Shown here: piece by piece, positions 1-64,000 of the stretch
Position numbering within the stretch: position 1 is the first letter of the stretch
Layout: the number at the start of each line of letters is the position of its first letter
DNA from: Nemertoderma westbladi
Lineage: Eukaryota > Animalia > Xenacoelomorpha
DNA length: 64,000 bases
Reading direction: 5' to 3'
Assembly: GCA_032718475.1 (NCBI GenBank)
Contig: JAUCBJ010003088.1
Coordinates: 8,473-72,472 of the forward strand
Notes under the pieces: model-generated
What the model was told of the DNA's origin: nothing
The model's input: only the letters and a program-made list of their open reading frames with translations
The model's database searches: none
Position numbers and translations under genes: made by a program

Positions 1-138
1 TAAAGAAAGACTATTTTGTATTATATTGCACTAAAGAAAGACTATTTTGTATTGTATTGCACTAAAGAAAGACTATTTTGTATTGTATTGCACTAAAGAA
101 AGACTATTTTGTATTATATTGTACTAAAGAAAGTCTAT
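1..138. repeat. 31-bp AT-rich minisatellite, about 4.4 copies visible, probably truncated by the window start
   Basis: Unit TAAAGAAAGACTATTTTGTATT(A/G)TATTGCAC starts at 1, 32, 63 and 94, with a partial copy at 125. Confidence 0.95.
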
Positions 139-22300: not shown

Positions 22301-25300
22301 AGTTAGAACCAGTACTCCTATATGGAGTCTATCAATCAGAAGTTAGAACCAGTACTCCTTTATGGAGTCCATCATACAGTAATTAGAACCAGTACTCCTC
22401 AATCAGCAGTTAGAACCAGTACTCCTTTATGGAGTCCATCAATCAGAAGTTAGAACCAGTACTCCTATATGGAGTCCATCAATCAGAAGTTAGAACCAGT
22501 ACTCCTATATGGAGTCCATCAATCAGAAGTTAGAACCAGTACTCCTATATGGAGTCCATCATACAGCAGTTAGAACCAGTACTCCTATATGGAGTCCATC
22601 AATCAGAATCAGAAGTTAGAACCAGTACTCCTATATGGAGTCCATCATACAGCAGTTAGAACAAGTACTCCTATATGGAGTCCATCATACAGCAGTTAGA
22701 ACCAGTACTCCTATATGGAGTCCATCATACAGCAGTTAGAACCAGTACTCCTATATGGAGTCCCATCATACAGCAGTTAGAACCAGTACTCCTATATGGA
22801 GTCCATCAATCAGCAGATAGAACCAGGAACCAGTACTCCTATATGGAGTCCATCATACAGCAGTTAGAACCAGTACTCCTATATGGAGTCCATCATATCA
22901 GAAGTTAGAACCAGTACTCCTATATGGAGTCCATCAATCAGCAGTTAGAACCAGTACTCCTATATGGAGTCCATCATACAGCAGTTAGAACCAGTACTCC
23001 TATATGGAGTCCATCATACAGCAGTTAGAACCAGTACTCCTATATGGAGTCCATCATACAGCAGTTAGACCCAGTACTCCTATATGGAGTCCATCAATCA
23101 TAAGTTAGAACCAGTACTCCTATATGGAGTCCATCATACAGCAGTTAGAACCAGTACTCCTATATGGAGTCCATCATACAGCAGTTAGAACCAGTACTCC
23201 TATATGGAGTCCATCATACAGCAGTTAGAACCAGTACTCCTATATGGAGTCCATCAATCATAAGTTAGAACCAGTACTCCTATATGGAGTCCATCATACA
23301 GCTGTTAGAACCAGTACTCCTATATGGAGTCCATCATACAGTAATTAGAACCAGTACTCCTCAATCAGCAGTTAGAACCAGTACTCCTTTATGGAGTCCA
23401 TCAATCAGAAGTTAGAACCAGTACTCCTATATGGAGTCCATCATACAGCAGTTAGAACCAGTACTCCTATATGGAGTCCATCATACAGCAGTTAGAACCA
23501 GTACTCCTATATGGAGTTCATCAATCAGCAGTTAGAACCAGGAACCAGTATTCCTATATGGATTCCATCATACAGCAGTTAGAATCAGTACTCCTATATG
23601 GAGTCCATCATACAACTCCTATATGGAGTCCATCATACAGCAGTTAGAATCAGTACTCCTATATGGAGTCCATCATACAGCAGTTAGAACCAGTACTCCT
23701 ATATGGAGTCCATCATGCAGCAGTTAGAACCAGTACTCCTATATGGAGTCCATCATACAGCAGTTAGAACCAGTACTCCTATATGGAGTCCATCATACAG
23801 CAGTTAGAATCAGTACTCCTATATGGAGTTCATCAATCAGCAGTTAGAACCAGTACTCCTATATGGAGTCTATCAATCAGAAGTTAGAACCAGTACTCCT
23901 TTATGGAGTCCATCATACAGTAATTAGAACCAGTACTCCTCAATCAGCAGTTAGAACCAGTACTCCTTTATGGAGTCCATCAATCAGAAGTTAGAACCAG
24001 TACTCCTATATGGAGTCCATCATACAGCAGTTAGAACCAGTACTCCTATATGGAGTCCATCATACAGCAGTTAGAATCAGTACTCCTATATGGAGTTCAT
24101 CAATCAGCAGTTAGAACCAGTACTCCTATATGGAGTCTATCAATCAGAAGTTAGAACCAGTACTCCTTTATGGAGTCCATCATACAGTAATTAGAACCAG
24201 TACTCCTCAATCAGCAGTTAGAACCAGTACTCCTTTATGGAGTCCATCAATCAGAAGTTAGAACCAGTACTCCTATATGGAGTCCATCAATCAGAAGTTA
24301 GAACCAGTACTCCTATATGGAGTCCATCAATCAGAAGTTAGAACCAGTACTCCTATATGGAGTCCATCATACAGCAGTTAGAACCAGTACTCCTATATGG
24401 AGTCCATCAATCAGAATCAGAAGTTAGAACCAGTACTCCTATATGGAGTCCATCATACAGCAGTTAGAACAAGTACTCCTATATGGAGTCCATCATACAG
24501 CAGTTAGAACCAGTACTCCTATATGGAGTCCATCATACAGCAGTTAGAACCAGTACTCCTATATGGAGTCCCATCATACAGCAGTTAGAACCAGTACTCC
24601 TATATGGAGCATCAATCAGCAGATAGAACCAGGAACCAGTACTCCTATATGGATTCCATCATACAGCAGTTAGAACCAGTACTCCTATATGGAGTCCATC
24701 AATCAGAAGTTAGAACCAGTACTCCTATATGGATTCCATCAATCAGCAGTTAGAACCAGTACTCCTATATGGAGTCCATCATACAGCAGTTAGAACCAGT
24801 ACTCCTATATGGAGTCCATCATACAGCAGTTAGAACCAGTACTCCTATATGGAGTCCATCATACAGCAGTTAGACCCAGTACTCCTATATGGAGTCCATC
24901 AATCATAAGTTAGAACCAGTACTCCTATATGGAGTCCATCATACAGCAGTTAGAACCAGTACTCCTATATGGAGTCCATCATACAGCAGTTAGAACCAGT
25001 ACTCCTATATGGAGTCCATCATACAGCAGTTAGACCCAGTACTCCTATATGGAGTCCATCAATCATAAGTTAGAACCAGTACTCCTATATGGAGTCCATC
25101 ATACAGCTGTTAGAACCAGTACTCCTATATGGAGTCCATCATACAGCAGTTAGAACCAGTACTCCTATATGGAGTCCATCATACAGCAGTTAGAACCAGT
25201 ACTCCTATATGGAGTCCATCATACAGAAGTTAGAACTAGTACTCCTATATGGAGTCCATCATACAGCAGTTAGAACCAGTACTCCTATATGGAGTCTATC

Positions 25301-28300
25301 ATACAGCAGTTAGAACCAGTACTCCTATATGGAGTCCATCAATCATAAGTTAGAACCAGTACTCCTATATGGAGTCCATCATACAGCAGTTAGAACCAGT
25401 ACTCCTATATGGAGTCCATCATACAGCTGTTAGAACCAGTACTCCTATATGGAGTCCATCATACAGCTGTTAGAACCAGTACTCCTATATGGAGTCCATC
25501 ATACAGCAGTTAGAACCAGTACTCCTATATGGAGCATCAATCAGCAGATAGAACCAGGAACCAGTATTCCTATATGGATTCCATCATACAGCAGTTAGAA
25601 TCAGTACTCCTATATGGAGTCCATCATACAACTCCTATATGGAGTCCATCATACAGCAGTTAGAATCAGTACTCCTATATGGAGTCCATCATACAGCAGT
25701 TAGAACCAGTACTCCTATATGGAGTCCATCATGCAGCAGTTAGAACCAGTACTCCTATATGGAGTCCATCATACAGCAGTTAGAACCAGTACTCCTATAT
25801 GGAGTCCATCATACAGCAGTTAGAATCAGTACTCCTATATGGAGTTCATCAATCAGCAGTTAGAACCAGTACTCCTATATGGAGTCTATCAATCAGAAGT
25901 TAGAACCAGTACTCCTTTATGGAGTCCATCATACAGTAATTAGAACCAGTACTCCTCAATCAGCAGTTAGAACCAGTACTCCTTTATGGAGTCCATCAAT
26001 CAGAAGTTAGAACCAGTACTCCTATATGGAGTCCATCATACAGCAGTTAGAACCAGTACTCCTATATGGAGTCCATCATACAGCAGTTAGAATCAGTACT
26101 CCTATATGGAGTTCATCAATCAGCAGTTAGAACCAGTACTCCTATATGGAGTCTATCAATCAGAAGTTAGAACCAGTACTCCTTTATGGAGTCCATCATA
26201 CAGTAATTAGAACCAGTACTCCTCAATCAGCAGTTAGAACCAGTACTCCTTTATGGAGTCCATCAATCAGAAGTTAGAACCAGTACTCCTATATGGAGTC
26301 CATCAATCAGAAGTTAGAACCAGTACTCCTATATGGAGTCCATCAATCAGAAGTTAGAACCAGTACTCCTATATGGAGTCCATCATACAGCAGTTAGAAC
26401 CAGTACTCCTATATGGAGTCCATCAATCAGAATCAGAAGTTAGAACCAGTACTCCTATATGGAGTCCATCATACAGCAGTTAGAACAAGTACTCCTATAT
26501 GGAGTCCATCATACAGCAGTTAGAACCAGTACTCCTATATGGAGTCCATCATACAGCAGTTAGAACCAGTACTCCTATATGGAGTCCCATCATACAGCAG
26601 TTAGAACCAGTACTCCTATATGGAGCATCAATCAGCAGATAGAACCAGGAACCAGTACTCCTATATGGATTCCATCATACAGCAGTTAGAACCAGTACTC
26701 CTATATGGAGTCCATCAATCAGAAGTTAGAACCAGTACTCCTATATGGATTCCATCAATCAGCAGTTAGAACCAGTACTCCTATATGGAGTCCATCATAC
26801 AGCAGTTAGAACCAGTACTCCTATATGGAGTCCATCATACAGCAGTTAGAACCAGTACTCCTATATGGAGTCCATCATACAGCAGTTAGACCCAGTACTC
26901 CTATATGGAGTCCATCAATCATAAGTTAGAACCAGTACTCCTATATGGAGTCCATCATACAGCAGTTAGAACCAGTACTCCTATATGGAGTCCATCATAC
27001 AGCAGTTAGAACCAGTACTCCTATATGGAGTCCATCATACAGCAGTTAGACCCAGTACTCCTATATGGAGTCCATCAATCATAAGTTAGAACCAGTACTC
27101 CTATATGGAGTCCATCATACAGCTGTTAGAACCAGTACTCCTATATGGAGTCCATCATACAGCAGTTAGAACCAGTACTCCTATATGGAGTCCATCATAC
27201 AGCAGTTAGAACCAGTACTCCTATATGGAGTCCATCATACAGAAGTTAGAACTAGTACTCCTATATGGAGTCCATCATACAGCAGTTAGAACCAGTACTC
27301 CTATATGGAGTCTATCATACAGCAGTTAGAACCAGTACTCCTATATGGAGTCCATCAATCATAAGTTAGAACCAGTACTCCTATATGGAGTCCATCATAC
27401 AGCAGTTAGAACCAGTACTCCTATATGGAGTCCATCATACAGCTGTTAGAACCAGTACTCCTATATGGAGTCCATCATACAGCTGTTAGAACCAGTACTC
27501 CTATATGGAGTCCATCATACAGCAGTTAGAACCAGTACTCCTATATGGAGCATCAATCAGTAGATAGAACCAGGAACCAGTATTCCTATATGGATTCCAT
27601 CATACAGCAGTTAGAATCAGTACTCCTATATGGAGTCCATCATACAACTCCTATATGGAGTCCATCATACAGCAGTTAGAATCAGTACTCCTATATGGAG
27701 TCCATCATACAGCAGTTAGAACCAGTACTCCTATATGGAGTCCACCATGCAGCAGTTAGAACCAGTACTCCTATATGGAGTCCATCATACAGCAGTTAGA
27801 ACCAGTACTCCTATATGGAGTCCATCATACAGCAGTTAGAATCAGTACTCCTATATGGAATTCATCAATCAGCAGTTAGAACCAGTACTCCTATATGGAG
27901 TCTATCAATCAGAAGTTAGAACCAGTACTCCTTTATGGAGTCCATCATACAGTAATTAGAACCAGTACTCCTCAATCAGCAGTTAGAACCAGTACTCCTT
28001 TATGGAGTCCATCAATCAGAAGTTAGAACCAGTACTCCTATATGGAGTCCATCATACAGCAGTTAGAACCAGTACTCCTATATGGAGTCCATCATACAGC
28101 AGTTAGAATCAGTACTCCTATATGGAGTTCATCAATCAGCAGTTAGAACCAGTACTCCTATATGGAGTCTATCAATCAGAAGTTAGAACCAGTACTCCTT
28201 TATGGAGTCCATCATACAGTAATTAGAACCAGTACTCCTCAATCAGCAGTTAGAACCAGTACTCCTTTATGGAGTCCATCAATCAGAAGTTAGAACCAGT

Positions 28301-31300
28301 ACTCCTATATGGAGTCCATCAATCAGAAGTTAGAACCAGTACTCCTATATGGAGTCCATCAATCAGAAGTTAGAACCAGTACTCCTATATGGAGTCCATC
28401 ATACAGCAGTTAGAACCAGTACTCCTATATGGAGTCCATCAATCAGAATCAGAAGTTAGAACCAGTACTCCTCAATCAGCAGTTAGAACCAGTACTCCTT
28501 TATGGAGTCCATCAATCAGAAGTTAGAACCAGTACTCCTATATGGAGTCCATCAATCAGAAGTTAGAACCAGTACTCCTATATGGAGTCCATCAATCAGA
28601 AGTTAGAACCAGTACTCCTATATGGAGTCCATCATACAGCAGTTAGAACCAGTACTCCTATATGGAGTCCATCAATCAGAATCAGAAGTTAGAACCAGTA
28701 CTCCTATATGGAGTCCATCATACAGCAGTTAGAACAAGTACTCCTATATGGAGTCCATCATACAGCAGTTAGAACCAGTACTCCTATATGGAGTCCATCA
28801 TACAGCAGTTAGAACCAGTACTCCTATATGGAGTCCCATCATACAGCAGTTAGAACCAGTACTCCTATATGGAGCATCAATCAGCAGATAGAACCAGGAA
28901 CCAGTACTCCTATATGGATTCCATCATACAGCAGTTAGAACCAGTACTCCTATATGGAGTCCATCAATCAGAAGTTAGAACCAGTACTCCTATATGGATT
29001 CCATCAATCAGCAGTTAGAACCAGTACTCCTATATGGAGTCCATCATACAGCAGTTAGAACCAGTACTCCTATATGGAGTCCATCATACAGCAGTTAGAA
29101 CCAGTACTCCTATATGGAGTCCATCATACAGCAGTTAGACCCAGTACTCCTATATGGAGTCCATCAATCATAAGTTAGAACCAGTACTCCTATATGGAGT
29201 CCATCATACAGCAGTTAGAACCAGTACTCCTATATGGAGTCCATCATACAGCAGTTAGAACCAGTACTCCTATATGGAGTCAATCATACAGCAGTTAGAC
29301 CCAGTACTCCTATATGGAGTCCATCAATCATAAGTTAGAACCAGTACTCCTATATGGAGTCCATCATACAGCTGTTAGAACCAGTACTCCTATATGGAGT
29401 CCATCATACAGCAGTTAGAACCAGTACTCCTATATGGAGTCCATCATACAGCAGTTAGAACCAGTACTCCTATATGGAGTCCATCATACAGAAGTTAGAA
29501 CTAGTACTCCTATATGGAGTCCATCATACAGCAGTTAGAACCAGTACTCCTATATGGAGTCTATCATACAGCAGTTAGAACCAGTACTCCTATATGGAGT
29601 CCATCAATCATAAGTTAGAACCAGTACTCCTATATGGAGTCCATCATACAGCAGTTAGAACCAGTAATCCTATATGGAGTCCATCATACAGCTGTTAGAA
29701 CCAGTACTCCTATATGGAGTCCATCATACAGCTGTTAGAACCAGTACTCCTATATGGAGTCCATCATACAGCAGTTAGAACCAGTACTCCTATATGGAGC
29801 ATCAATCAGCAGATAGAACCAGGAACCAGTATTCCTATATGGATTCCATCATACAGCAGTTAGAATCAGTACTCCTATATGGAGTCCATCATACAACTCC
29901 TATATGGAGTCCATCATACAGCAGTTAGAATCAGTACTCCTATATGGAGTCCATCATACAGCAGTTAGAACCAGTACTCCTATATGGAGTCCACCATGCA
30001 GCAGTTAGAACCAGTACTCCTATATGGAGTCCATCATACAGCAGTTAGAACCAGTACTCCTATATGGAGTCCATCATACAGAAGTTAGAACTAGTACTCC
30101 TATATGGAGTCCATCATACAGCAGTTAGAACCAGTACTCCTATATGGAGTCTATCATACAGCAGTTAGAACCAGTACTCCTATATGGAGTCCATCAATCA
30201 TAAGTTAGAACCAGTACTCCTATATGGAGTCCATCATACAGCAGTTAGAACCAGTACTCCTATATGGAGTCCATCATACAGCTGTTAGAACCAGTACTCC
30301 TATATGGAGTCCATCATACAGCTGTTAGAACCAGTACTCCTATATGGAGTCCATCATACAGCAGTTAGAACCAGTACTCCTATATGGAGCATCAATCAGC
30401 AGATAGAACCAGGAACCAGTATTCCTATATGGATTCCATCATACAGCAGTTAGAATCAGTACTCCTATATGGAGTCCATCATACAACTCCTATATGGAGT
30501 CCATCATACAGCAGTTAGAATCAGTACTCCTATATGGAGTCCATCATACAGCAGTTAGAACCAGTACTCCTATATGGAGTCCACCATGCAGCAGTTAGAA
30601 CCAGTACTCCTATATGGAGTCCATCATACAGCAGTTAGAACCAGTACTCCTATATGGAGTCCATCATACAGCAGTTAGAATCAGTACTCCTATATGGAGT
30701 TCATCAATCAGCAGTTAGAACCAGTACTCCTATATGGAGTCTATCAATCAGAAGTTAGAACCAGTACTCCTTTATGGAGTCCATCATACAGTAATTAGAA
30801 CCAGTACTCCTCAATCAGCAGTTAGAACCAGTACTCCTTTATGGAGTCCATCAATCAGAAGTTAGAACCAGTACTCCTATATGGAGTCCATCATACAGCA
30901 GTTAGAACCAGTACTCCTATATGGAGTCCATCATACAGCAGTTAGAATCAGTACTCCTATATGGAGTTCATCAATCAGCAGTTAGAACCAGTACTCCTAT
31001 ATGGAGTCTATCAATCAGAAGTTAGAACCAGTACTCCTTTATGGAGTCCATCATACAGTAATTAGAACCAGTACTCCTCAATCAGCAGTTAGAACCAGTA
31101 CTCCTTTATGGAGTCCATCAATCAGAAGTTAGAACCAGTACTCCTATATGGAGTCCATCAATCAGAAGTTAGAACCAGTACTCCTATATGGAGTCCATCA
31201 ATCAGAAGTTAGAACCAGTACTCCTATATGGAGTCCATCATACAGCAGTTAGAACCAGTACTCCTATATGGAGTCCATCAATCAGAATCAGAAGTTAGAA

Positions 31301-33989
31301 CCAGTACTCCTCAATCAGCAGTTAGAACCAGTACTCCTTTATGGAGTCCATCAATCAGAAGTTAGAACCAGTACTCCTATATGGAGTCCATCAATCAGAA
31401 GTTAGAACCAGTACTCCTATATGGAGTCCATCAATCAGAAGTTAGAACCAGTACTCCTATATGGAGTCCATCATACAGCAGTTAGAACCAGTACTCCTAT
31501 ATGGAGTCCATCAATCAGAATCAGAAGTTAGAACCAGTACTCCTATATGGAGTCCATCATACAGCAGTTAGAACAAGTACTCCTATATGGAGTCCATCAT
31601 ACAGCAGTTAGAACCAGTACTCCTATATGGAGTCCATCATACAGCAGTTAGAACCAGTACTCCTATATGGAGTCCCATCATACAGCAGTTAGAACCAGTA
31701 CTCCTATATGGAGCATCAATCAGCAGATAGAACCAGGAACCAGTACTCCTATATGGATTCCATCATACAGCAGTTAGAACCAGTACTCCTATATGGAGTC
31801 CATCAATCAGAAGTTAGAACCAGTACTCCTATATGGATTCCATCAATCAGCAGTTAGAACCAGTACTCCTATATGGAGTCCATCATACAGCAGTTAGAAC
31901 CAGTACTCCTATATGGAGTCCATCATACAGCAGTTAGAACCAGTACTCCTATATGGAGTCCATCATACAGCAGTTAGACCCAGTACTCCTATATGGAGTC
32001 CATCAATCATAAGTTAGAACCAGTACTCCTATATGGAGTCCATCATACAGCAGTTAGAACCAGTACTCCTATATGGAGTCCATCATACAGCAGTTAGAAC
32101 CAGTACTCCTATATGGAGTCAATCATACAGCAGTTAGACCCAGTACTCCTATATGGAGTCCATCAATCATAAGTTAGAACCAGTACTCCTATATGGAGTC
32201 CATCATACAGCTGTTAGAACCAGTACTCCTATATGGAGTCCATCATACAGCAGTTAGAACCAGTACTCCTATATGGAGTCCATCATACAGCAGTTAGAAC
32301 CAGTACTCCTATATGGAGTCCATCATACAGAAGTTAGAACTAGTACTCCTATATGGAGTCCATCATACAGCAGTTAGAACCAGTACTCCTATATGGAGTC
32401 TATCATACAGCAGTTAGAACCAGTACTCCTATATGGAGTCCATCAATCATAAGTTAGAACCAGTACTCCTATATGGAGTCCATCATACAGCAGTTAGAAC
32501 CAGTACTCCTATATGGAGTCCATCATACAGCTGTTAGAACCAGTACTCCTATATGGAGTCCATCATACAGCTGTTAGAACCAGTACTCCTATATGGAGTC
32601 CATCATACAGCAGTTAGAACCAGTACTCCTATATGGAGCATCAATCAGCAGATAGAACCAGGAACCAGTATTCCTATATGGATTCCATCATACAGCAGTT
32701 AGAATCAGTACTCCTATATGGAGTCCATCATACAACTCCTATATGGAGTCCATCATACAGCAGTTAGAATCAGTACTCCTATATGGAGTCCATCATACAG
32801 CAGTTAGAACCAGTACTCCTATATGGAGTCCACCATGCAGCAGTTAGAACCAGTACTCCTATATGGAGTCCATCATACAGCAGTTAGAACCAGTACTCCT
32901 ATATGGAGTCCATCATACAGCAGTTAGAATCAGTACTCCTATATGGAGTTCATCAATCAGCAGTTAGAACCAGTACTCCTATATGGAGTCTATCAATCAG
33001 AAGTTAGAACCAGTACTCCTTTATGGAGTCCATCATACAGTAATTAGAACCAGTACTCCTCAATCAGCAGTTAGAACCAGTACTCCTTTATGGAGTCCAT
33101 CAATCAGAAGTTAGAACCAGTACTCCTATATGGAGTCCATCATACAGCAGTTAGAACCAGTACTCCTATATGGAGTCCATCATACAGCAGTTAGAATCAG
33201 TACTCCTATATGGAGTTCATCAATCAGCAGTTAGAACCAGTACTCCTATATGGAGTCTATCAATCAGAAGTTAGAACCAGTACTCCTTTATGGAGTCCAT
33301 CATACAGTAATTAGAACCAGTACTCCTCAATCAGCAGTTAGAACCAGTACTCCTTTATGGAGTCCATCAATCAGAAGTTAGAACCAGTACTCCTATATGG
33401 AGTCCATCAATCAGAAGTTAGAACCAGTACTCCTATATGGAGTCCATCAATCAGAAGTTAGAACCAGTACTCCTATATGGAGTCCATCATACAGCAGTTA
33501 GAACCAGTACTCCTATATGGAGTCCATCAATCAGAATCAGAAGTTAGAACCAGTACTCCTATATGGAGTCCATCATACAGCAGTTAGAACAAGTACTCCT
33601 ATATGGAGTCCATCATACAGCAGTTAGAACCAGTACTCCTATATGGAATCCATCATACAGCAGTTAGAACCAGTACTCCTATATGGAGTCCCATCATACA
33701 GCAGTTAGAACCAGTACTCCTATATGGAGCATCAATCAGCAGATAGAACCAGGAACCAGTACTCCTATATGGATTCCATCATACAGCAGTTAGAACCAGT
33801 ACTCCTATATGGAGTCCATCAATCAGAAGTTAGAACCAGTACTCCTATATGGATTCCATCAATCAGCAGTTAGAACCAGTACTCCTATATGGAGTCCATC
33901 ATACAGCAGTTAGAACCAGTACTCCTATATGGAGTCCATCATACAGCAGTTAGAACCAGTACTCCTATATGGAGTCCATCATACAGCAG
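1301..33989 (+). repeat. 40-bp satellite DNA array, left arm, with higher-order structure
   Basis: Continuous head-to-tail copies of GTTAGAACCAGTACTCCTATATGGAGTCCATCATACAGCA, all in one orientation. Recurring variants include CAATCAGAAG, CAATCATAAG, CAGCTG, CAGTAATT and GATAGAACCAGGAACC, plus truncated monomers. Confidence 0.99.
33911..33989 (+). repeat. Probable left target-site duplication (about 79 bp) of the retrotransposon
   Basis: Identical to 35829-35907. Removing the element plus one copy restores the 3-monomer spacing between the GGATTCCATCAATC and TTAGACCC variants seen at other copies of this block. Confidence 0.65.
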
Positions 33990-34087
33990 AATCAGATGGG
34001 CGGAAAAGCCAACCAACCACCAAGGTTAAGGCTGAATCACCAGCCGATCGCCTTAATGGTTGGAAAGCCCACTTTGAAAAGCTCCTT

Positions 34088-34239
34088 AATAATGGCAGGG
34101 TATTGCCTGATAACTTTATAGAAGTAAAAGTGTCTGAGTCTGTACTCCCAGATATTCCCATTGAATAATGGCAGGGTATTGCCTGATAACTTTATAGAAG
34201 TAAAAGTGTCTGAGTCTGTACTCCCAGATATTCCCATTG
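34088..34239 (+). repeat. Perfect 76-bp tandem duplication inside the retrotransposon
   Basis: 34088-34163 (AATAATGGCAGG...ATTCCCATTG) is repeated exactly at 34164-34239; the peptide NNGRVLPDNFIEVKVSESVLPDIPI appears in two frames. Confidence 0.97.
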
Positions 34240-35361
34240 GCGATATCTCCTTTGCAGAAGTGAAGGCTGCTGCAAAGAGCATTAAGACCAATCGTGCCAG
34301 TGGAGTAGATGGTGTTCCCCCTGAGGTCTTTAAAATACCTGAGTGTTTAAAGCTCATCTATCCCATCATAGTAGACATGTACCGTACAACAAGAGTCCCA
34401 CAAGAAATGAAAACAAATAAGTTGGTGCCAGTTCCCAAGAAGGGCAACCTAACACTCTATGGTTCTTTTCGGGGAATCTCATTGATCTCGATTGCTGCAA
34501 AACTATAAAATAGAATTCTATTAAATCGCATCAGGGATCCCATTGAGAGACTGCTACGTGGAAATCAGAATGGGTTCCGTAAAGGTCGTGGGACCATGGA
34601 GCCCATTTTGGCACTTAGAAGGATAATTGAAGAGTTATCAAAAAAGAAAGACAGGCATCTGGCTGTTATCTTTGTTGACTTCTTCAAGGCCTTTGATTCA
34701 GTCTCTCGCTCACGTATGTTCAGCATACTTTCATTATATGGGATTCCTGATGAAATTATTGCAGCAATCAGATCAGTATACGATGGTTCGACAACATTTG
34801 TGTCTACTGTTGACGGTGACACAGAACCATTTGAAGTGTTATGGGGCGTCCTCCAAGGAGACACACTTGCACCATTCTTCTTCATTATTGTGGTTGACTA
34901 TGTTCTACGCATGTCCTTAGATCATCATAATGATGATGGGGTGATGATAACTCCACCTACTGGCTCCAGAAGTCGAGGAAATCCTGCCAAGTACCTAACT
35001 GATCTAGACTTTGCTGATGACTTAGGAGTACTCTCAGAATCATTAGAGGGAGCCCAGCGGCTCCTCAGCTCATTAGAACATGCTGCTTCTAGTGTTGGTC
35101 TTTTTATTAACTCCAGAAAGACCAAAATTCTGACAGTTAACTTTGAAAGTCCTCAGCAAGTCTCTGATCGGATGAGCATAAGCTCAAAGGATGGTATGCT
35201 TGAGCATGTGGATGACTTCTGTTACCTGGGATCATGGATCCGGAAGTCAGGTGAGGACCTTCGAATACGTAAGGGAAAGGCATGGGCAGCCTTGAATAGG
35301 CTTTCCAGGATTTGGAAGTCACCTAGAATTAATCGGAAACTTAAAGTCCGATTATTTAGAG

Positions 35362-35397
35362 CAGCAGTAGTTCCAGTACTCCTCTATGGGAGTCCAT
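35362..35397 (+). other. Segment of the RT ORF homologous to the flanking satellite monomer
   Basis: CAGCAGT-AGTTCCAGTACTCCTCTATGGGAGTCCAT versus satellite CAGCAGTTAGAACCAGTACTCCTATATGG-AGTCCAT: 32 of 37 columns identical, 3 mismatches, 2 single-nt gaps. Confidence 0.9.
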
Positions 35398-35789
35398 GCT
35401 GGGCTCTAACTGCTGAGGACACCAAATCTCTGGATGGCACATTCACAAGAATGCTACGCCGGGTACATTGTGTCAAGTACAATGCACACATCTCCAACCA
35501 GACACTATATAACATTGGAGGTGTCTCATTGGTTCCCCCAAGCTTGACACTAGAACAAAATCGCCTCCGCTTTGCAGGACATTGCTTTCGCCGTGAGGAC
35601 CAGCCAGTGCATAATCTTGTACTTTGGCAGCCTCATGGAGTGAATAAGCATGGTGGACAGCCCATGACTTTCTTGAGACGCATCTTAAAGGACACTGGCC
35701 TTAAAGATGCGGATGATCTAGCAAATGTCATGGGTGATAGGGAGTTGTGGCGGTGCAATTTTGTTGACAAGCCGGCACAGCATTCTTAA

Positions 35790-35831
35790 AAATGCAGCTG
35801 CAATGCAGCATGCCGATCCTAGTAGTAGTAG
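35790..35831 (+). other. Short 3' UTR and (TAG)n tail of the retrotransposon
   Basis: After the TAA stop: AATGCAGCTGCAATGCAGCATGCCGATCC, then TAGTAGTAGTAG (35820-35831). The last TAG is shared with the target TAGAACC. Confidence 0.85.
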
Positions 35832-35907
35832 AACCAGTACTCCTATATGGAGTCCATCATACAGCAGTTAGAACCAGTACTCCTATATGGAGTCCATCAT
35901 ACAGCAG
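35829..35907 (+). repeat. Probable right target-site duplication (about 79 bp)
   Basis: Identical to 33911-33989 and followed by the diagnostic TTAGACCC variant. Confidence 0.65.
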
Positions 35908-38900
35908 TTAGACCCAGTACTCCTATATGGAGTCCATCAATCATAAGTTAGAACCAGTACTCCTATATGGAGTCCATCATACAGCAGTTAGAACCAGTAC
36001 TCCTATATGGAGTCCATCATACAGCAGTTAGAACCAGTACTCCTATATGGAGTCCATCATACAGCAGTTAGAACCAGTACTCCTATATGGAGTCCATCAA
36101 TCATAAGTTAGAACCAGTACTCCTATATGGAGTCTATCATACAGCAGTTAGAACCAGTACTTCTATATGGAGTCCCATCATACAGCAGTTAGAACCAGTA
36201 CTCCTATATGGAGCATCAATCAGCAGATAGAACCAGGAACCAGTACTCCTATATGGATTCCATCATACAGCAGTTAGAACCAGTACTCCTATATGGAGTC
36301 CATCAATCAGAAGTTAGAACCAGTACTCCTATATGGATTCCATCAATCAGCAGTTAGAACCAGTACTCCTATATGGAGTCCATCATACAGCAGTTAGAAC
36401 CAGTACTCCTATATGGAGTCCATCATACAGCAGTTAGAACCAGTACTCCTATATGGAGTCAATCATACAGCAGTTAGACCCAGTACTCCTATATGGAGTC
36501 CATCAATCATAAGTTAGAACCAGTACTCCTATATGGAGTCCATCATACAGCAGTTAGAACCAGTACTCCTATATGGAGTCCATCATACAGCAGTTAGAAC
36601 CAGTACTCCTATATGGAGTCCATCATACAGCAGTTAGAACCAGTACTCCTATATGGAGTCCATCATACAGCAGTTAGAATCAGTACTCCTATATGGAGTC
36701 CATCATACAGCAGTTAGAACCAGTACTCCTATATGGAGTCCATCATACAGCAGTTAGAACCAGTACTCCTATATGGAGTCCATCATACAGCAGTTAGAAC
36801 CAGTACTCTTATATGGAGTCAATCATACAGCCTATATGGAGTCCATCAATCAGAAGTTAGAACCAGTACTCCTATATGGAGTCCATCAATCAGAATCAGA
36901 AGTTAGAACCAGTACTCCTATATGGAGTCCATCATACAGCAGTTAGAACCAGTACTCCTATATGGAGTCCATCAATCATAAGTTAGAACCAGTACTCCTA
37001 TATGGAGTCCATCATACAGCAGTTAGAACCAGTACTCCTATATGGAGTCCATCATACAGAAGTTAGAACCAGTACTCCTATATGGAGTCCATCATACAAA
37101 AGTTAGAACCAGTACTCCTATATGGAGTCCATCAATCAGAAGTTAGAACCAGTACTCCTATATGGAGTCCATCAATCAGAAGTTAGAACCAGTACTCCTA
37201 TATGGAGTCCATCATACAGCAGTTAGAATCAGTACTCCTATATGAAGTCCATCATACAAAAGTTAGAACCAGTACTCCTATATGGAGACCATCATACAGC
37301 AGTTAGAACCAGTACTCCTATATGGAGTCCATCAATCAGAAGTTAGAACCAGTACTCCTTTATGGAGTCCTTCAATCATAAGTTAGAACCAGTACTCCTA
37401 TATGGAGTCCATCATACAGCAGTTAGAACCAGTACTCCTTCCTATATGGATTCCATCATACAGCAGTTAGAACCAGTACTCCTATATGGAGTCCATCAAT
37501 CAGAAGTTAGAACCAGTACTCCTTTATGGAGTCCTTCAATCAGAAGTTAGAACCAGTACTCCTATATGGATTCCATCAATCAGAAGTTAGAACCAGTACT
37601 CCTATATGGAGTCCATCAATCAGAAGTTAGAACTAGTACTCCTTTATGGAGTCCATCAATCAGAAGTTAGAACCAGTACTCCTATATGGAGTCCATCATA
37701 CAGCAGTTAGAATCAGTACTCCTATATGGAGTCCATCATACAAAAGTTAGAACCATACAGCAGTTAGAACCAGTACTCCTATATGGAGTCCATCATACAG
37801 CAGTTAGAACCAGTACTCCTATATGGAGCATCAATCAGCAGATAGAACCAGGAACCAGTACTCCCATATGGATTCCATCATACAGCAGTTAGAACCAGTA
37901 CTCCTATATGGAGTCCATCATACAGCAGTTAGAACCAGTACTCCTATATGGAGTCCATCATACAGCAGTTAGAACCAGTACTCCTATATGGAGTCCATCA
38001 ATCAGAAGTTAGAACCAGTACTCCTATATGGAGTCCATCAATCAGAAGTTAGAACCAGTACTCCTATATGGAGTCCATCATACAGCAGTTAGAATCAGTA
38101 CTCCTATATGGAGTCCATCATACAAAAGTTAGAACCAGTACTCCTATATGGAGTCCATCATACAGCAGTTAGAACTCCTATATGGAGTCCATCATACAGC
38201 AGTTAGAATCAGTACTCCTATATGGAGTCCATCATACAGCAGTTAGAACCAGTACTCCTATATGGAGTCCATCATGCAGCAGTTAGAACCAGTACTCCTA
38301 TATGGAGTTCATCAATCAGCAGTTAGAACCAGTACTCCTATATGGAGCATCAATCAGAAGTTAGAACCAGTACTCCTATATGGAGTCCATCAATCAGAAG
38401 TTAGAACCAGTACTCCTATATGGAGTCCATCAATCAGAAGTTAGAACCAGTACTCCTATATGGAGTCCATCATACAGCAGTTAGAATCAGTACTCCTATA
38501 TGGAGTCCATCATACAAAAGTTAGAACCAGTACTCCTATATGGAGTCCATCATACAGCAGTTAGAACTCCTATATGGAGTCCATCATACAGCAGTTAGAA
38601 TCAGTACTCCTATATGGAGTCCATCATACAGCAGTTAGAACCAGTACTCCTATATGGAGTCCATCAATCAGAAGTTAGAACCAGTACTCCTTTATGGAGT
38701 CCTTCAATCATAAGTTAGAACCAGTACTCCTATATGGAGTCCATCATACAGCAGTTAGAACCAGTACTCCTTCCTATATGGATTCCATCATACAGCAGTT
38801 AGAACCAGTACTCCTATATGGAGTCCATCAATCAGAAGTTAGAACCAGTACTCCTTTATGGAGTCCTTCAATCAGAAGTTAGAACCAGTACTCCTATATG

Positions 38901-41900
38901 GATTCCATCAATCAGAAGTTAGAACCAGTACTCCTATATGGAGTCCATCAATCAGAAGTTAGAACTAGTACTCCTTTATGGAGTCCATCAATCAGAAGTT
39001 AGAACCAGTACTCCTATATGGAGTCCATCATACAGCAGTTAGAATCAGTACTCCTATATGGAGTCCATCATACAAAAGTTAGAACCATACAGCAGTTAGA
39101 ACCAGTACTCCTATATGGAGTCCATCATACAGCAGTTAGAACCAGTACTCCTATATGGAGCATCAATCAGCAGATAGAACCAGGAACCAGTACTCCCATA
39201 TGGATTCCATCATACAGCAGTTAGAACCAGTACTCCTATATGGAGTCCATCATACAGCAGTTAGAACCAGTACTCCTATATGGAGTCCATCATACAGCAG
39301 TTAGAACCAGTACTCCTATATGGAGTCCATCAATCAGAAGTTAGAACCAGTACTCCTATATGGAGTCCATCAATCAGAAGTTAGAACCAGTACTCCTATA
39401 TGGAGTCCATCATACAGCAGTTAGAATCAGTACTCCTATATGGAGTCCATCATACAAAAGTTAGAACCAGTACTCCTATATGGAGTCCATCATACAGCAG
39501 TTAGAACTCCTATATGGAGTCCATCATACAGCAGTTAGAATCAGTACTCCTATATGGAGTCCATCATACAGCAGTTAGAACCAGTACTCCTATATGGAGT
39601 CCATCATGCAGCAGTTAGAACCAGTACTCCTATATGGAGTTCATCAATCAGCAGTTAGAACCAGTACTCCTATATGGAGCATCAATCAGAAGTTAGAACC
39701 AGTACTCCTATATGGAGTCAGTCCATCAATCATAAGTTAGAACCAGTACTCCTATATGGAGTCCATCATACAGCAGTTAGAACCAGTACTCCTTCCTATA
39801 TGGAGTCCATCATTCAGCTGTTAGAACCAGTACTTCTATATGGAGACCATCATACAGCAGTTAGAACCAGTACTCCTATATGGAGCATCAATCAGAAGTT
39901 AGAACCAGTACTCCAGTAGCAGTTAGAACCAGTACTCCTATATGGAGTCTATCAATCAGAAGTTAGAACCAGTACTCCTTTATGGAGTCCATCATACAGC
40001 AGTTAGAACCAGTACTCCTATATGGAGCATCAATCAGCAGATAGAACCAGGAACCAGTACTCCTATATGGATTCCATCATACAGCAGTTAGAACCAGTAC
40101 TCCTATATGGAGTCCATCATACAGCAGTTAGAACCAGTACTCCTATATGGAGTCCATCATACAGCAGTTAGAACCAGTACTCCTATATGGAGTCCATCAA
40201 TCAGAAGTTAGAACCAGTACTCCTATATGGAGTCCATCATACAGCAGTTAGAATCAGTACTCCTATATGAAGTCCATCATACAAAAGTTAGAACCAGTAC
40301 TCCTATATGGAGACCATCATACAGCAGTTAGAACCAGTACTCCTATATGGAGTCCATCAATCAGAAGTTAGAACCAGTACTCCTTTATGGAGTCCTTCAA
40401 TCATAAGTTAGAACCAGTACTCCTATATGGAGTCCATCATGCAGCAGTTAGAACCAGTACTCCTTCCTATATGGATTCCATCATACAGCAGTTAGAACCA
40501 GTACTCCTATATGGAGTCCATCATACAGCAGTTAGAACCAGTACTCTTATATGGATACCATCATACAGCAGTTAGAACCAGTACTCCTATATGGAGCATC
40601 AATCAGAAGTTAGAACCAGTACTCCTTTATGGAGTCAGTCCATCAATCATAAGTTAGAACCAGTACTCCTATATGGAGTCCATCATACAGCAGTTAGAAC
40701 CAGTACTCCTTCCTATATGGATTCCATCATACAGCAGTTAGAACCAGTACTCCTATATGGAGTCCATCATACAGCTGTTAGAACCAGTACTCCTATATGG
40801 AGTCCATCAATCAGAAGTTAGAACCAGTACTCCTATATGGAGTCAGTCCATCAATCATAAGTTAGAATCAGTACTCCTATATGGAGTCCATCATACAGCA
40901 GTTAGAACCAGTACTCCTTCCTATATGGAGTCCATCATACAGCAGATAGAACCAGTACTCCTATATGGAGTCCATCATACAGCAGTCAGAACCAGTACTT
41001 CTATATGGAGACCATCATACAGCAGTTAGAACCAGTACTCCTATATAGGACCAGTACTCCTATATGGAGTCCATCAATCAGAAGTTAGAACCAGTACTCC
41101 TTTATGGAGTCCTTCAATCAGAAGTTAGAACCAGTACTCCTATATGGATTCCATCAATCAGAAGTTAGAACCAGTACTCCTATATGGAGTCCATCAATCA
41201 GAAGTTAGAACTAGTACTCCTTTATGGAGTCCATCAATCAGAAGTTAGAACCAGTACTCCTATATGGAGTCCATCATACAGCAGTTAGAATCAGTACTCC
41301 TATATGGAGTCCATCATACAAAAGTTAGAACCATACAGCAGTTAGAACCAGTACTCCTATATGGAGTCCATCATACAGCAGTTAGAACCAGTACTCCTAT
41401 ATGGAGCATCAATCAGCATATAGAACCAGGAACCAGTACTCCCATATGGATTCCATCATACAGCAGTTAGAACCAGTACTCCTATATGGAGTCCATCATA
41501 CAGCAGTTAGAACCAGTACTCCTATATGGAGTCCATCATACAGCAGTTAGAACCAGTACTCCTATATGGAGTCCATCAATCAGAAGTTAGAACCAGTACT
41601 CCTATATGGAGTCCATCAATCAGAAGTTAGAACCAGTACTCCTATATGGAGTCCATCATACAGCAGTTAGAATCAGTACTCCTATATGGAGTCCATCATA
41701 CAAAAGTTAGAACCAGTACTCCTATATGGAGTCCATCATACAGCAGTTAGAACTCCTATATGGAGTCCATCATACAGCAGTTAGAATCAGTACTCCTATA
41801 TGGAGTCCATCATACAGCAGTTAGAACCAGTACTCCTATATGGAGTCCATCATGCAGCAGTTAGAACCAGTACTCCTATATGGAGTCCATCATACAGCAG

Positions 41901-43600
41901 TTAGAACCAGTACTCCTATATGGAGTCCATCATACAGCAGTTAGAATCAGTACTCATATATGGAGTTCATCAATCAGCAGTTAGAACCAGTACTCCTATA
42001 TGGAGTCTATCAATCAGAAGTTAGAACCAGTACTCCTTTATGGAGTCCATCATACAGTAATTAGAACCAGTACTCCTCAATCAGCAGTTAGAACCAGTAC
42101 TCCTTTATGGAGTCCATCAATCAGAAGTTAGAACCAGTACTCCTATATGGAGTCCATCATACAGCAGTTAGAACCAGTACTCCTATATGGAGTCCATCAT
42201 ACAGCAGTTAGAATCAGTACTCCTATATGGAGTTCATCAATCAGCAGTTAGAACCAGTACTCCTATATGGAGTCTATCAATCAGAAGTTGGAACCAGAAC
42301 TCCTTTATGGAGTCCATCATACAGTAATTAGAACCAGTACTCCTCAATCAGCAGTTAGAACCAGTACTCCTTTATGGAGTCCATCAATCAGAAGTTAGAA
42401 CCAGTACTCCTATATGGAGTCCATCAATCAGAAGTTAGAACCAGTACTCCTATATGGAGTCCATCAATCAGAATCAGAAGTTAGAACCAGTACTCCTATA
42501 TGGAGTCCATCATACAGCAGTTAGAACAAGTACTCCTATATGGAGTCCATCATACAGCAGTTAGAACCAGTACTCCTATATGGAGTCCATCATACAGCAG
42601 TTAGAACCAGTACTCCTATATGGAGTCCATCATACAGCAGTTAGAACCAGTACTCCTATATGGAGCATCAATCTGCAGATAGAACCAGGAACCAGTACTC
42701 CTATATGGATTCCATCATACAGCAGTTAGAACCAGTACTCCTATATGGAGTCCATCAATCAGAAGTTAGAACCAGTACTCCTATATGGATTCCATCAATC
42801 AGCAGTTAGAACCAGTACTCATATATGGAGTCCATCATACAGCAGTTAGAACCAGTACTCCTATATGGAGTCCATCATACAGCAGTTAGAACCAGTACTC
42901 CTATATGGAGTCCATCATACAGCAGTTAGACCCAGTACTCCTATATGGAGTCCATCAATCATAAGTTAGAACCAGTACTCCTATATGGAGTCCATCATAC
43001 AGCAGTTAGAACCAGTACTCCTATATGGAGTCCATCATACAGCAGTTAGAACCAGTACTCTTATATGGAGTCCATCATACAGCAGTTAGAACCAGTACTC
43101 CTATATGGAGTCCATCATACAGCAGTTAGAACCAGTACTCCTATATGGAGTCCATCATACAGCAGTTAGAACCAGTACTCCTATACGGAGTCCATCATAC
43201 AGCAGTTAGAATCAGTACTCCTATATGGAGTCCATCATACAGCAGTTAGAACCAGTACTCCTATATGGAGTCCCTCATACAGCAGTTAGAACCAGTACTC
43301 CCATATGGAGTCCATCATACAGCAGTTAGAACCAGTACTCCTATATGGAGTCCATCATACAGCCTATATGGAGTCCATCAATCAGAAGTTAGAACCAGTA
43401 CTCCTATATGGAGTCCATCAATCAGAATCAGAAGTTAGAACCAGTACTCCTATATGGAGTCCATCATACTGCAGTTAGAACCAGTACTCCTATATGGAGT
43501 CCATCAATCATAAGTTAGAACCAGTACTCCTATATGGAGTCCATCATACAGCAGTTAGAACCAGTACTCCTATATGGAGTCCTTCATACAGAAGATAGAA

Positions 43601-46600
43601 CCAGTACTATAAGGAGTCCTTCATACAGAAGATAGAACCAGTACTATATGGAGTCCATCATACAGCAGTTAGAACCAGTACCATATGGAGTCCATCATAC
43701 AGCAGTTAGAACCAGTACTATATGGAGTCCATCATACAGCAGTTAGAACCAGTACTATATGGAGTCCATCAATCAGCAGTTAGAACCAGTACTATATGGA
43801 GTCCATCATACAGCAGTTAGAACCAGTACTATATGGAGTCCATCATACAGCAGTTAGATCCAGTACTATATGGAGTCCTTCATACAGAAGATAGAACCAG
43901 TACCATATGGAGTCCATCATACAGCAGTTAGAACCAGTACTATATGGAGTCCATCACACAGCAGTTAGAACCAGTACTATATGGAGTCCATCATACAGCA
44001 GTTAGAACCAGTACTATATGGAGTCCTTCATATAGAAGATAGAACCAGTACTATATGGAGTCCATCATACAGCAGTTAGAACCAGTACTATATGGAGTCC
44101 TTCATACAGAAGATAGAACTAGTACTATATGGAGTCCTTCATACAGAAGATAGAACCAGTACCATATGGAGTCCATCATACAGCAGTTAGAACCAGTACT
44201 ATATGGAGTCCATCACACAGCAGTTAGAACCAGTACTATATGGAGTCCATCATACAGCAGTTAGAACCAGTACTATATGGAGTCCTTCATATAGAAGATA
44301 GAACCAGTACTATATGGAGTCCATCATACAGCAGTTAGAACCAGTACTATATGGAGTCCATCATACAGCAGTTAGAACCAGTACTATATGGAGTCCATCA
44401 TACAGCAGTTAGATCCAGTACTATATGGAGTCCTTCATACAGAAGATAGAACCAGTACCATATGGAGTCCATCATACAGCAGTTAGAACCAGTACTATAT
44501 GGAGTCCATCACACAGCAGTTAGAACCAGTACTATATGGAGTCCATCATACAGCAGTTAGAACCAGTACTCCTATATGGAGTCCATCATACAGCAGTTAG
44601 AACCAGTACTATATGGAGTCCATCATACAGCAGTTAGAACCAATACTCATATATGGAGTCCATCATACAACAGTTAGAACCAGTACTATATGGAGTCCAT
44701 CATACAGCAGTTAGAACCAGTACCATATGGAGTCCATCATACAGCAGTTAGAACCAGTACTATATGGAGTCCATCATACAGCAGTTAGAACCAGTACTCC
44801 TATATGGAGTCCATCATACAGCAGTTAGAACCAGTACTCCTATATGGAGTCCATCATACAGCAGTTAGAACCAGTACTCCTATATGGAGTCCATCATACA
44901 GCAGTTAGAATCAGTACTCCTATATGGAGTCCATCATACAGCAGTTAGAACCAGTACTCCTATATGGAGTCCATCATACAGCAGTTAGAACCAGTACTCC
45001 TATATGGAGTCCATCATACAGCAGTTAGAACCAGTACTCCTATATGGAGTCCATCATACAGCCTGGAGTCCATCAATCAGAAGTTAGAACCAGTACTCCT
45101 ATATGGAGTCCATCAATCAGAATCAGAAGTTAGAACCAGTACTCCTATATGGAGTCCATCATACAGCAGTTAGAACCAGTACTCCTATATGGAGTCCATC
45201 AATCATAAGTTAGAACCAGTACTCCTATATGGAGTCCATCATACAGCAGTTAGAACCAGTACTCCTATATGGAGTCCTTCATACAGAAGATAGAACCAGT
45301 ACTATAAGGAGTCCTTCATACAGAAGATAGAACCAGTACTATATGGAGTCCATCATACAGCAGTTAGAACCAGTACCATATGGATTCCATCATACAGCAG
45401 TTAGAACCAGTACTATATGGAGTCCATCATACAGCAGTTAGAACCAGTACTATATGGAGTCCATCAATCAGCAGTTAGAACCAGTACTATATGGAGTCCA
45501 TCATACAGCAGTTAGAACCAGTACTCCTATATGGAGTCCATCATACAGCAGTTAGAACCACTACTATATGGAGTCCATCATACAGCAGTTAGAACCAGTA
45601 CTCCTATATGGAGTCCATCATACAGCAGTTAGAACCAGTACTATATGGAGTCCATCATACAGCAGTTAGAACCAGAACCATATGGAGTCCATCATACAGC
45701 AGTTAGAACCAGTACTATATAGAGTCCATCATACAGCAGTTAGAACCAGTACTATATGGAGTCCATCATACAGCAGTTAGAACCAGTACTATATGGAGTC
45801 CATCATACAGCAGTAGAACCAGTACTATATGGAGTCCATCATACAGAAGATAGAACCAGTACTATATGGAGTCCTTCATACAGAAAATAGAACCAGTACT
45901 ATATGGAGTCCTTCATACAGAAGTTAGAACCAGTACTCCAATATGGAGTCCATCATACAGCAGTTAGAACCAGTACTATATGGAGTCCATCAATCAGCAG
46001 TTAGAATCAGTACTCCTATATGGAGTCCATCATACAGCAGTTAGAACCAGTTCTATATGGAGTCCTCCATACAGAAGATAGAACCAGTACCATATGGAGT
46101 CCATCATACAGCAGTTAGAACCAGTACGATAGAACCAGTACTATATGGAGTCCATCATACAGCAGTTAGAACCAGTACTATATGGAGTCCATCATACAGC
46201 AGTTAGAACCAGTACTATATGGAGTCCATCATACAGCAGTTAGAACCAGTACTATATAGAGTCCTTCATATAGAAGATAGAACCAGTACTATATGGAGTC
46301 CGTCATACAGCAGTTAGAACCAGTACTATATGGAGTCCATCATACAGCAGTTAGAACCAGTACTATATGGAGTCCTTCATACAGAAGATAGAACTAGTAC
46401 TATATGGAGTCCATCATACAGCAGTAGAACCAGTACTATATGGAGTCCTTCATATAGAAGATAGAACCAGTACTATATGGAGTCCATCATACAGCAGTTA
46501 GAACCAGTACTATATGGAGTCCATCATACAGCAGTTAGAACCAGTACTCCAATATGGAGTCCATCATACAGCAGTTAGAACCAGTATTATATGGAGTCCT

Positions 46601-63000: not shown

Positions 63001-64000
63001 TACTCCTATATGGAGTCCATCATACAGCAGTTAGAACCAGTACTCCTATATGGAGTCCATCATACAGCAGTTAGAACCAGTACTCCTATATGGAGCATCA
63101 ATCAGCAGATAGAACCAGGAACCAGTACTCCTATATGGATTCCATCATACAGCAGTTAGAACCAGTACTCCTATATGGAGTCCATCAATCAGAAGTTAGA
63201 ACCAGTACTCCTATATGGATTCCATCAATCAGCAGTTAGAACCAGTACTCCTATATGGAGTCCATCATACAGCAGTTAGAACCAGTACTCCTATATGGAG
63301 TCCATCATACAGCAGTTAGAACCAGTACTCCTATATGGAGTCCATCATACAGCAGTTAGAACCAGTACTCCTATATGGAGTCCATCATACGGCAGTTAGA
63401 ACCAGTACTCCTATATGGAGTCCATCATACAGCAGTTAGAACTCCTATATGGAGTCCATCATACAGCAGTTAGAACCAGTACTCCTATATGGAGTCCATC
63501 ATACAGCAGTTAGACCCAGTACACCTATATGGAGTCCATCAATCATAAGTTAGAACCAGTACTCCTATATGGAGTCCATCATACAGCAGTTAGAACCAGT
63601 ACTCCTATATGGAGTCCATCATACAGCAGTTAGAACCAGTACTCCTATATTGAGTCCATCATACAGCAGTTAGAACCAGTACTCCTATATGGAGTCCATC
63701 ATACAGCAGTTAGAATCAGTACTCCTATATGGAGTCCATCATACAGCAGTTAGAACCAGTACTCCTATATGGAGTCCATCATACAGCAGTTAGAACCAGT
63801 ACTCCTATATGGAGTCCATCATACAGCAGTTAGAACCAGTACTCCTATATGGAGTCCATCATACAGCCTATATGGAGTCCATCAATCAGAAGTTAGAACC
63901 AGTACTCCTATATGGATTCCATCAATCAGCAGTTAGAACCAGTACTCCTATATGGAGTCCATCATACAGCAGTTAGAACCAGTACACCTATATGGAGTCC

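What the first reader, a model, noticed from the sequence alone, without database searches (positions are those of the whole stretch)
35362..35397. The 40-bp satellite monomer is a copy of a coding motif of the retrotransposon inserted in it
Seen: 36 of the 40 nt of the monomer align to the element's ORF at 32 of 37 columns, on the same strand. The satellite reads GAA CCA GTA CTC CTA TAT GGA (EPVLLYG) and the element reads GTT CCA GTA CTC CTC TAT GGG (VPVLLYG). CTC/CTA is synonymous, and the Gly codon is kept however the gap is placed. Established: (P/S)xLLYGxxxW is a conserved motif downstream of the RT core in RTE-type LINEs, and satellites can derive from transposons. Inference: since the motif is ancestral and in frame in the element, the direction is LINE to satellite, probably from a sister subfamily encoding AVEPVLLYGSP. 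A >60-kb array would then have been amplified from a tiny conserved piece of RT coding sequence and later reinvaded by the same family.
Basis: partly seen in the sequence, partly recalled or inferred. Interest (0 to 1): 0.92.

Follow-up and report, generated by a model that had tools for sequence, protein, structure and literature searches.

The report
Satellite born from retrotransposon coding DNA
A 40-letter DNA unit repeated about 1,500 times matches a short piece of a jumping gene's enzyme-coding sequence and most likely grew out of an older version of that gene, whose younger form later jumped into the array; this is a well-documented new example of a known way satellite DNA is born, with no sign yet of a function.

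Summary
The match is real: monomer and element agree at 32 of 37 columns (35362-35397), and 0 of 3,000 shuffles reach that score. It is specific to this family. 91 loci of related elements score at most 33 against 45. It is family-wide, not local conversion from the satellite. The satellite's three substitutions (35371, 35372, 35384) occur as minor, apparently indel-free variants in runs of three studies, though unphased. They restore the Glu found in 110 of 120 homologues, while the Pro codon shared with this family occurs in 0 of 120. So the direction is most likely LINE to satellite, from an older Glu-type subfamily. Other 45-50-nt tandem forms of the same segment exist, but so do tandem forms elsewhere in the element. 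The inserted copy is young, 5'-truncated and younger than the array's higher-order repeat. The family is dispersed, so re-insertion needs no targeting. Satellites from LINE ORF2 are published. Verdict: new member of a known kind, unusually well polarised; interest 0.42.

The parts
1301..33989 (+). 40-bp satellite array, left block; 815 anchored units with higher-order repeats of about 2.0-2.8 kb
35829..64000 (+). 40-bp satellite array, right block; 701 anchored units, more heterogeneous, with a domain of 37-bp deletion monomers at about 43.6-51 kb; open at the window end
33990..33996 (+). 7-nt filler at the 5' junction; not family sequence, resembles a satellite variant
   Evidence: family contigs continue upstream of 33997 with other letters (table 7); variant monomers B and M
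33997..35828 (+). 5'-truncated RTE-like non-LTR retrotransposon copy (linker, RT, C-terminal region, 3' UTR, tail)
   Evidence: RVT_1 E 6.6e-22; 5' end aligns in frame inside the single ORF of relative L001; junctions
34088..34239 (+). Perfect 76-bp tandem duplication; absent from the one family contig seen crossing this place; shifts the frame
   Evidence: contig 17 of run X4 skips it (table 8)
34506..34508 (+). Premature stop, not shared by the bulk of the family
   Evidence: nearly all family depth differs at 34508 (table 3)
34509..35789 (+). Open 426-aa frame: RT domain (residues 1-241), DUF6451 stretch (261-293, below the curated cut-off) and C-terminal part
35361..35397 (+). 37-nt coding segment homologous to the monomer (codons 285-297, just after the RT core); inferred source of the unit
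35361..35418 (+). Region over which other family-derived contigs loop back with 48- and 50-nt periods, carrying the Glu codon
   Evidence: table 5c, table 5c
35790..35819 (+). 30-nt 3' UTR
35820..35831 (+). (TAG)4 tail; the last TAG (35829-35831) is shared with the satellite target
   Evidence: empty-site joint 33989 to 35829, tables 5 and 5c

Best explanation
The 40-bp monomer matches a 37-nt coding piece of this RTE-like LINE family at the DNA level and most likely arose when that piece, in a copy of an older Glu-type subfamily, was duplicated head to tail, then likely gained a 3-nt duplication, one extra T and lost one G, and was amplified into an array of at least 61 kb, into which a younger Val-type copy later inserted. 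Shown: the homology, its family specificity, its presence throughout the family, minor LINE-frame variants at the three satellite positions, other tandem forms of the segment, and the insertion being younger than the higher-order repeat. Inferred: the direction, that the three variants lie on one haplotype, seeding by slippage at 2-4-nt microhomology, amplification by unequal exchange, and priming of the insertion by pairing of the (UAG)n tail with the monomer's TAG. The array is probably selfish or heterochromatic DNA; no function is shown.
For: (1) Significance. (2) Not mere protein conservation: random back-translations of the 120 homologue motifs reach score 45 in 1 of 36,000, and the element's own peptide with random synonymous codons in 11 of 20,000. 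91 real relative loci reach at most 33, and the 68 with a locatable motif at most 32. (3) Polarity: the LINE segment is in frame and conserved (L 117, L 116, Y 119, G 116, W 118 of 120), while the monomer carries two frameshifts. The monomer has the Glu codon (E in 110 of 120; element V, 3 of 120) and shares this family's Pro codon (0 of 120). (4) Family-wide: one common, synonymous variant in the motif. (5) Minor variants 35371 T>A, 35372 T>A and 35384 C>A in 66/92/92 contigs (X3), 82/111/110 (X1) and 9/10/12 (X5), with no indel rows and no clipping rows shown at the satellite's gap positions. With all three applied, only the two gaps remain, 35 of 37. (6) Loop-back joints over the motif: 48 nt (X3 depth 722, against about 25-35 for single diverged pieces), 48 nt (X3 30, X1 7), 50 nt (X3 80), 45 nt (X1 21). 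(7) The marker context R-xxx-P holds 3 monomers in 11 of 11 other higher-order copies and 5 around the insert, which is present in only 1 of the 12.
Against: The three variants are unphased, and their depths differ (X3 5,582 / 10,653 / 16,379; X5 1,262 / 1,155 / 487). X1 has about 1-1.5% background at other sites. A contribution of satellite contigs is unlikely but not excluded (314 loose-end rows not shown). No short 37- or 40-nt tandem inside LINE flanks was seen. The left flank of the array is not LINE sequence (score 23/22 against a shuffled mean of 24), so the birthplace is not in view. The blastn E-value (1e-4 in 280 kb) is moderate. Joints carrying the Glu codon are favoured by how table 5c is built (it lists joints with unmatched letters).
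Confidence: 0.85

Rival explanations
1. The monomer comes from the LINE through a non-autonomous intermediate (a truncated or SINE-like element carrying a short internal tandem), which spread and seeded arrays at new places.
For: The left flank is not LINE. Clusters of contigs begin inside the motif with unlike upstream sequence (35373: 20 contigs in X1; 35385: 30-32 contigs in X1 and X3). An orphan half-monomer lies at 712-744.
Against: Upstream consensus agreement is only 0.39-0.46, as expected for unrelated flanks of 5'-truncated copies. No terminal repeats or second element were found in 140-1340. This changes the route, not the source.
Confidence: 0.08
2. Satellite to LINE: the satellite came first and its sequence entered LINE copies by gene conversion or capture, making the Glu-type variants.
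For: The copy sits inside the array, and the minor variants equal the satellite's letters.
Against: The motif is conserved in 120 distant homologues and in the whole family, whose copies are mostly dispersed. The monomer is frameshifted twice. The inserted copy itself has the non-satellite letters at all three sites. Conversion could at most explain some minor variants.
Confidence: 0.04
3. Chance or convergence: a conserved protein motif makes any RTE resemble the monomer, and the pairing was picked after the fact.
For: The best non-self blastn hits fall on the same motif in three relatives (score 30, E 0.05), and 2 of 68 relatives equal the element's 19 of 22 in the ungapped core.
Against: No relative extends the match over both flanks: maximum 33 against 45. 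Shuffle and back-translation controls point the same way.
Confidence: 0.02

Closest known systems
Satellites related to LINE ORF2: PROsat (Phodopus, LINE-1 ORF2), Pvc 20 (Phoca, LINE-1 ORF2), chicken HinfI/SCR1 (CR1 3' UTR and partial ORF2); review PMC9659126, passages, section 2.2 and part of Table 1 read
   Same: Tandem repeat whose unit is homologous to the coding region of a non-LTR retrotransposon.
   Different: Here nearly the whole 40-nt unit is one coding segment, the donor is RTE-like (the word RTE does not occur in that review's main text), the donor family is young and high-copy, and a copy sits in the array.
SINE-derived satellites of squamates (PMC10702118; abstract and Discussion read)
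   Same: A library of internal duplications in retroposon copies, of which a few amplify to up to 1,000 units and homogenise.
   Different: Source is LINE coding sequence, not a SINE. The extended terminal unit typical of those arrays is absent at the left edge here.
TE-derived tandem repeats of the human genome (Ahmed and Liang 2012, PMC3389668; abstract and second half of Results read)
   Same: Tandem repeats commonly start in young TE copies (23% of mini/satellites), some at hotspots and some at short direct repeats.
   Different: Most of those have few units; this array has more than 1,500 units with higher-order structure.
L1-CS LINEs targeting the CUS-TR24 satellite of Cuscuta europaea (PMC8091179; passages read)
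   Same: LINE inserted in a satellite array at a defined monomer position.
   Different: There 91% of L1-CS copies are array-associated and the passages read report no derivation of the monomer from the LINE. Here the family is dispersed, only one insertion is seen, and the monomer derives from the family.

Membership tests
Transposable-element-derived satellite DNA | Long head-to-tail array of a short monomer | tested here: met
   1,516 anchored units over about 61 kb; the 1,111 40-mers differ from the commonest by 1.7 bases on average
Transposable-element-derived satellite DNA | Monomer homologous to a TE beyond chance and beyond protein-level conservation | tested here: met
Transposable-element-derived satellite DNA | Direction polarised from TE to satellite | tested here: met
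   in-frame, conserved motif in 120 homologues against a twice-frameshifted monomer; ancestral Glu and lineage-specific Pro codons; an inference from these data
Transposable-element-derived satellite DNA | Short intermediate tandems of the same segment inside TE copies | tested here: inconclusive
   45-, 48- and 50-nt loop-back joints over the motif, but none of the 37/40-nt unit
Array at its birthplace inside a TE copy | TE sequence in register on the flanks of the array | tested here: not met
   left flank 1-1300 has no similarity to the element; the right edge is outside the window and no genome is held
RTE clade of non-LTR retrotransposons | Single ORF with AP endonuclease and RT (definition recalled) | tested here: inconclusive
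   met in relative L002 (48% identical; one 1,049-aa ORF with Exo_endo_phos and RVT_1); the window copy is truncated before the endonuclease
RTE clade of non-LTR retrotransposons | Short 3' UTR ending in a microsatellite-like tail that overlaps the target by one to several bases (PMC6007223, passages) | tested here: met
   30-nt UTR, (TAG)4, 3-nt overlap with the target
RTE clade of non-LTR retrotransposons | Target-site duplication mostly 7-15 bp (PMC6007223) | tested here: inconclusive
   no short duplication is visible; two extra monomers less one base (79 nt) flank the insert, which may be a long duplication or array slippage
RTE clade of non-LTR retrotransposons | Placement within RTE in an RT tree with named reference elements | not tested
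   no named reference RTE sequences were fetched; the label RTE-like rests on architecture and recall
Satellite-targeting LINE (L1-CS type) | Most copies lie in the satellite at a fixed site | tested here: not met
   3' flanks are diverse and AT-rich in 290 (X1) and 206 (X3) contigs in the rows shown, agreement 0.36-0.40 (table 7); one insertion in 1,516 units
Centromeric satellite | CENH3/CENP-A binding and chromosomal position | not testable with these tools
   no chromatin data, no assembly

The most novel reading that the evidence does not exclude
A feedback loop between a LINE and its own offspring. The Glu-type subfamily seeded a satellite from a conserved RT-flanking motif. Antisense small RNAs from the amplified array silenced that subfamily. 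The now dominant subfamily escaped through three changes in the 20-nt ungapped core, including a two-base Glu-to-Val change at a residue conserved in 110 of 120 homologues. The array meanwhile offers the family a TAG landing site taken from its own sequence. Nothing seen excludes this. But three differences in 36 nt fit the 5-15% divergence of older copies, and no RNA evidence was available.
Probability: 0.06. Interest if true: 0.85.

Novelty: new member of a known kind. Interest (0 to 1): 0.42.

Why it matters
Most claims that a satellite came from a transposon rest on partial similarity with no direction. Here almost the whole monomer maps to 12 codons. Ancestral and derived codons bracket its origin between two subfamily states, sibling tandems that stayed small appear to coexist with the one that expanded, and the donor family is still young. 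With the assembly, this would allow a direct test of the library model of satellite birth: which duplications expand and how fast. It would also allow a cheap test of whether a TE-derived satellite feeds back on its parent.

Tried and rejected
No whole genome is held, so phasing and copy counts came only from contig tables. A pattern covering both the satellite and LINE forms found 0 stretches in metagenome contigs and 0 in viral contigs. No RNA holder was listed; this says nothing on expression. Rejected: local gene conversion (family-wide motif). Rejected: growth of the array out of the inserted copy (it has the non-satellite letters and sits in 1 of 12 comparable higher-order copies). Rejected: satellite-specific targeting (dispersed flanks). 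Not supported: a unique tandem hotspot at the motif, since loop-back joints also occur at 35544 to 35510 (X3 depth 5,204) and 34574 to 34535 (561), and 360 more rows were not shown. A monomer variant with G at the LINE-equivalent position of 35361 (26 of 1,516 units) could be ancestral or a back-change; not used as evidence. Same-strand orientation (even odds) and use of the TAG site (known tail-target overlap) were not counted as evidence. The PDB search gave only R2 and L1 proteins. Earlier scan notes held nothing by place or sequence. Seven literature searches (listings only unless stated) showed no title describing an RTE coding-derived satellite re-entered by its parent; the library lacks most subscription journals and no supplements were read. 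PMC12054243 and 10.64898/2026.09.17.752431 were seen as passages only; the latter describes satellite-like arrays formed from single transposon sub-sequences.

Full report
Setting. The window is about 1.3 kb of AT-rich flank followed by a 40-bp satellite from about 1301 to the window end, interrupted once by 1.84 kb of unique sequence. Splitting on an anchor gives 815 units to the left and 701 to the right; the commonest monomer makes up 419 of these 1,516, and higher-order repeats of about 2.0-2.8 kb are clear, mainly on the left. No whole genome is held, so genome-wide evidence comes from contigs of public runs, cited by code.

The insert. It carries a 426-aa open frame (34509-35789) with RVT_1 at residues 1-241 (E 6.6e-22). 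Its closest relatives are 53-57% identical. Relative L002 (48%) has a single 1,049-aa ORF with endonuclease and RT. With a 30-nt 3' UTR and a (TAG)4 tail, it works like an RTE-clade LINE; tree placement was not tested. Family contigs continue upstream of 33997, so the copy is 5'-truncated and 33990-33996 is filler. It has a perfect 76-bp duplication and a stop that the bulk of the family lacks, and differs from nearly all family depth at only about six listed sites, so it is a young, broken copy. The family is abundant: 103,584 and 28,318 contigs were laid in X1 and X3, with hundreds of unlike AT-rich 3' flanks.

Observation. The monomer aligns at 35362-35397 with 32 of 37 identities. 0 of 3,000 shuffles reach the score under three schemes and 1 of 3,000 under a lax fourth. 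A codon-shuffle control gives 0 of 3,000, and blastn gives E 9.6e-5 in 280 kb. Extending one base left, the monomer is accounted for as the 37-nt piece 35361-35397 with a 3-nt duplication, one base added, one lost and four substitutions (read).

Is it only a conserved motif? No. Random back-translations of the motif from 120 homologues reach score 45 in 1 of 36,000 trials; the element's own peptide with random codons does so in 11 of 20,000. Among 91 real relative loci the best score is 33; among the 68 in which the motif could be located, 32. Against this, 2 of those 68 equal the element in the 22-nt ungapped core; only this family extends the match on both sides.

Direction. In 120 homologues the motif positions L, L, Y, G and W are 97-99% conserved. 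Position 288 is Glu in 110 (Val in the window copy and 3 homologues) and position 296 is Pro in none. The satellite has the Glu codon and the Pro codon, and two frameshifts. It therefore most likely left this lineage after the Pro arose, from copies that still had Glu. This step is inference.

The sister form. Laying four runs on 35325-35445 shows minor variants at exactly the three substituted positions inside the alignment: 66/92/92 contigs in X3, 82/111/110 in X1, 9/10/12 in X5, none in the single contig of X7. No indel rows are listed, and the best-supported clipping rows do not fall at the satellite's gap positions, so these contigs appear to be LINE-frame rather than satellite. The variants are unphased, depths disagree up to threefold, and X1 is noisy. 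With the three letters applied the match is 35 of 37. The only common variant in the motif is synonymous (35387), so the similarity is not local conversion.

Sibling tandems. Four loop-back forms cross the motif: two of 48 nt in one register (one at depth 722 in X3, roughly 20-30 junction copies if single-copy depth is about 25-35), one of 50 and one of 45. The three with letters shown carry the Glu codon, though that table favours such cases. The 48-nt register pairs 35364-35367 with 35412-35415, identical when the common 35414 variant is present, which fits slippage at short direct repeats (mechanism in PMC3389668). Loop-backs also occur elsewhere in the element, so the motif is not shown to be special.

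Order of events. A marker context in the higher-order repeat holds 3 monomers in 11 of 11 other copies that end in the same marker; 7 further contexts in the right block belong to another repeat and were set aside. Around the insert it holds 5, and only this copy has the insert. The insertion is therefore younger than the higher-order structure. The two extra monomers less one base may be a hidden 79-nt target duplication or slippage; published RTE duplications are mostly 7-15 bp (PMC6007223). The tail overlaps the target's TAG, a known feature of RTE junctions (same paper). The left flank is not LINE, so the array is not shown at its birthplace.

Comparison. Satellites related to LINE ORF2 are reviewed in PMC9659126, retroposon-seeded libraries of tandems in PMC10702118 and PMC3389668, and LINE-targeted satellites in PMC8091179. 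Earlier unchecked notes of this scan describe three similar cases in other genomes; they are not support, but they suggest the pattern recurs.

Verdict. It is a new member of a known kind, better polarised than most, with no function shown. Interest 0.42; the small-RNA feedback reading has probability about 0.06 and would merit 0.85.

Noticed in passing
window 33871-33989 and 35829-35908: Two extra monomers less one base straddle the insert compared with 11 other higher-order copies; possibly a 79-nt target-site duplication hidden in the array.
   Followed up: partly
window 35510-35544 and 34535-34574 (family contigs): Other loop-back joints in the element, one at depth 5,204 in X3 and 493 in X1 (37-nt period): possibly a second LINE-derived minisatellite.
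   Followed up: no
window 43600-51000: Domain of 37-bp monomers lacking three bases of the core, with its own variants and little long-range order.
   Followed up: partly
window 712-744: Orphan half-monomer about 590 bp left of the array (79% over 33 nt, E 0.17 in 280 kb), and a 10-nt monomer word near 841-850.
   Followed up: no
window 1-138: Unrelated 31-bp tandem repeat, 4.5 copies, cut by the window start.
   Followed up: no
window 35829-36000: The insertion lies close to the change from the regular left higher-order domain to the more mixed right domain.
   Followed up: no
runs X4 and X7 laid on window 33970-35850 and 35325-35445: Near-identical element contigs at low depth in runs labelled as two other organisms: admixture, co-sampling or transfer; not resolved.
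   Followed up: no
window 35361 (family contigs): A few contigs join the motif from diverged upstream sequence that still reads in frame like the LINE, pointing to older sister families in the same organism (table 7).
   Followed up: partly
L081-L091: Eukaryote-type LINE RT sequences inside 9 bacterial metagenome-assembled genome records (11 loci), probably binning contamination.
   Followed up: no
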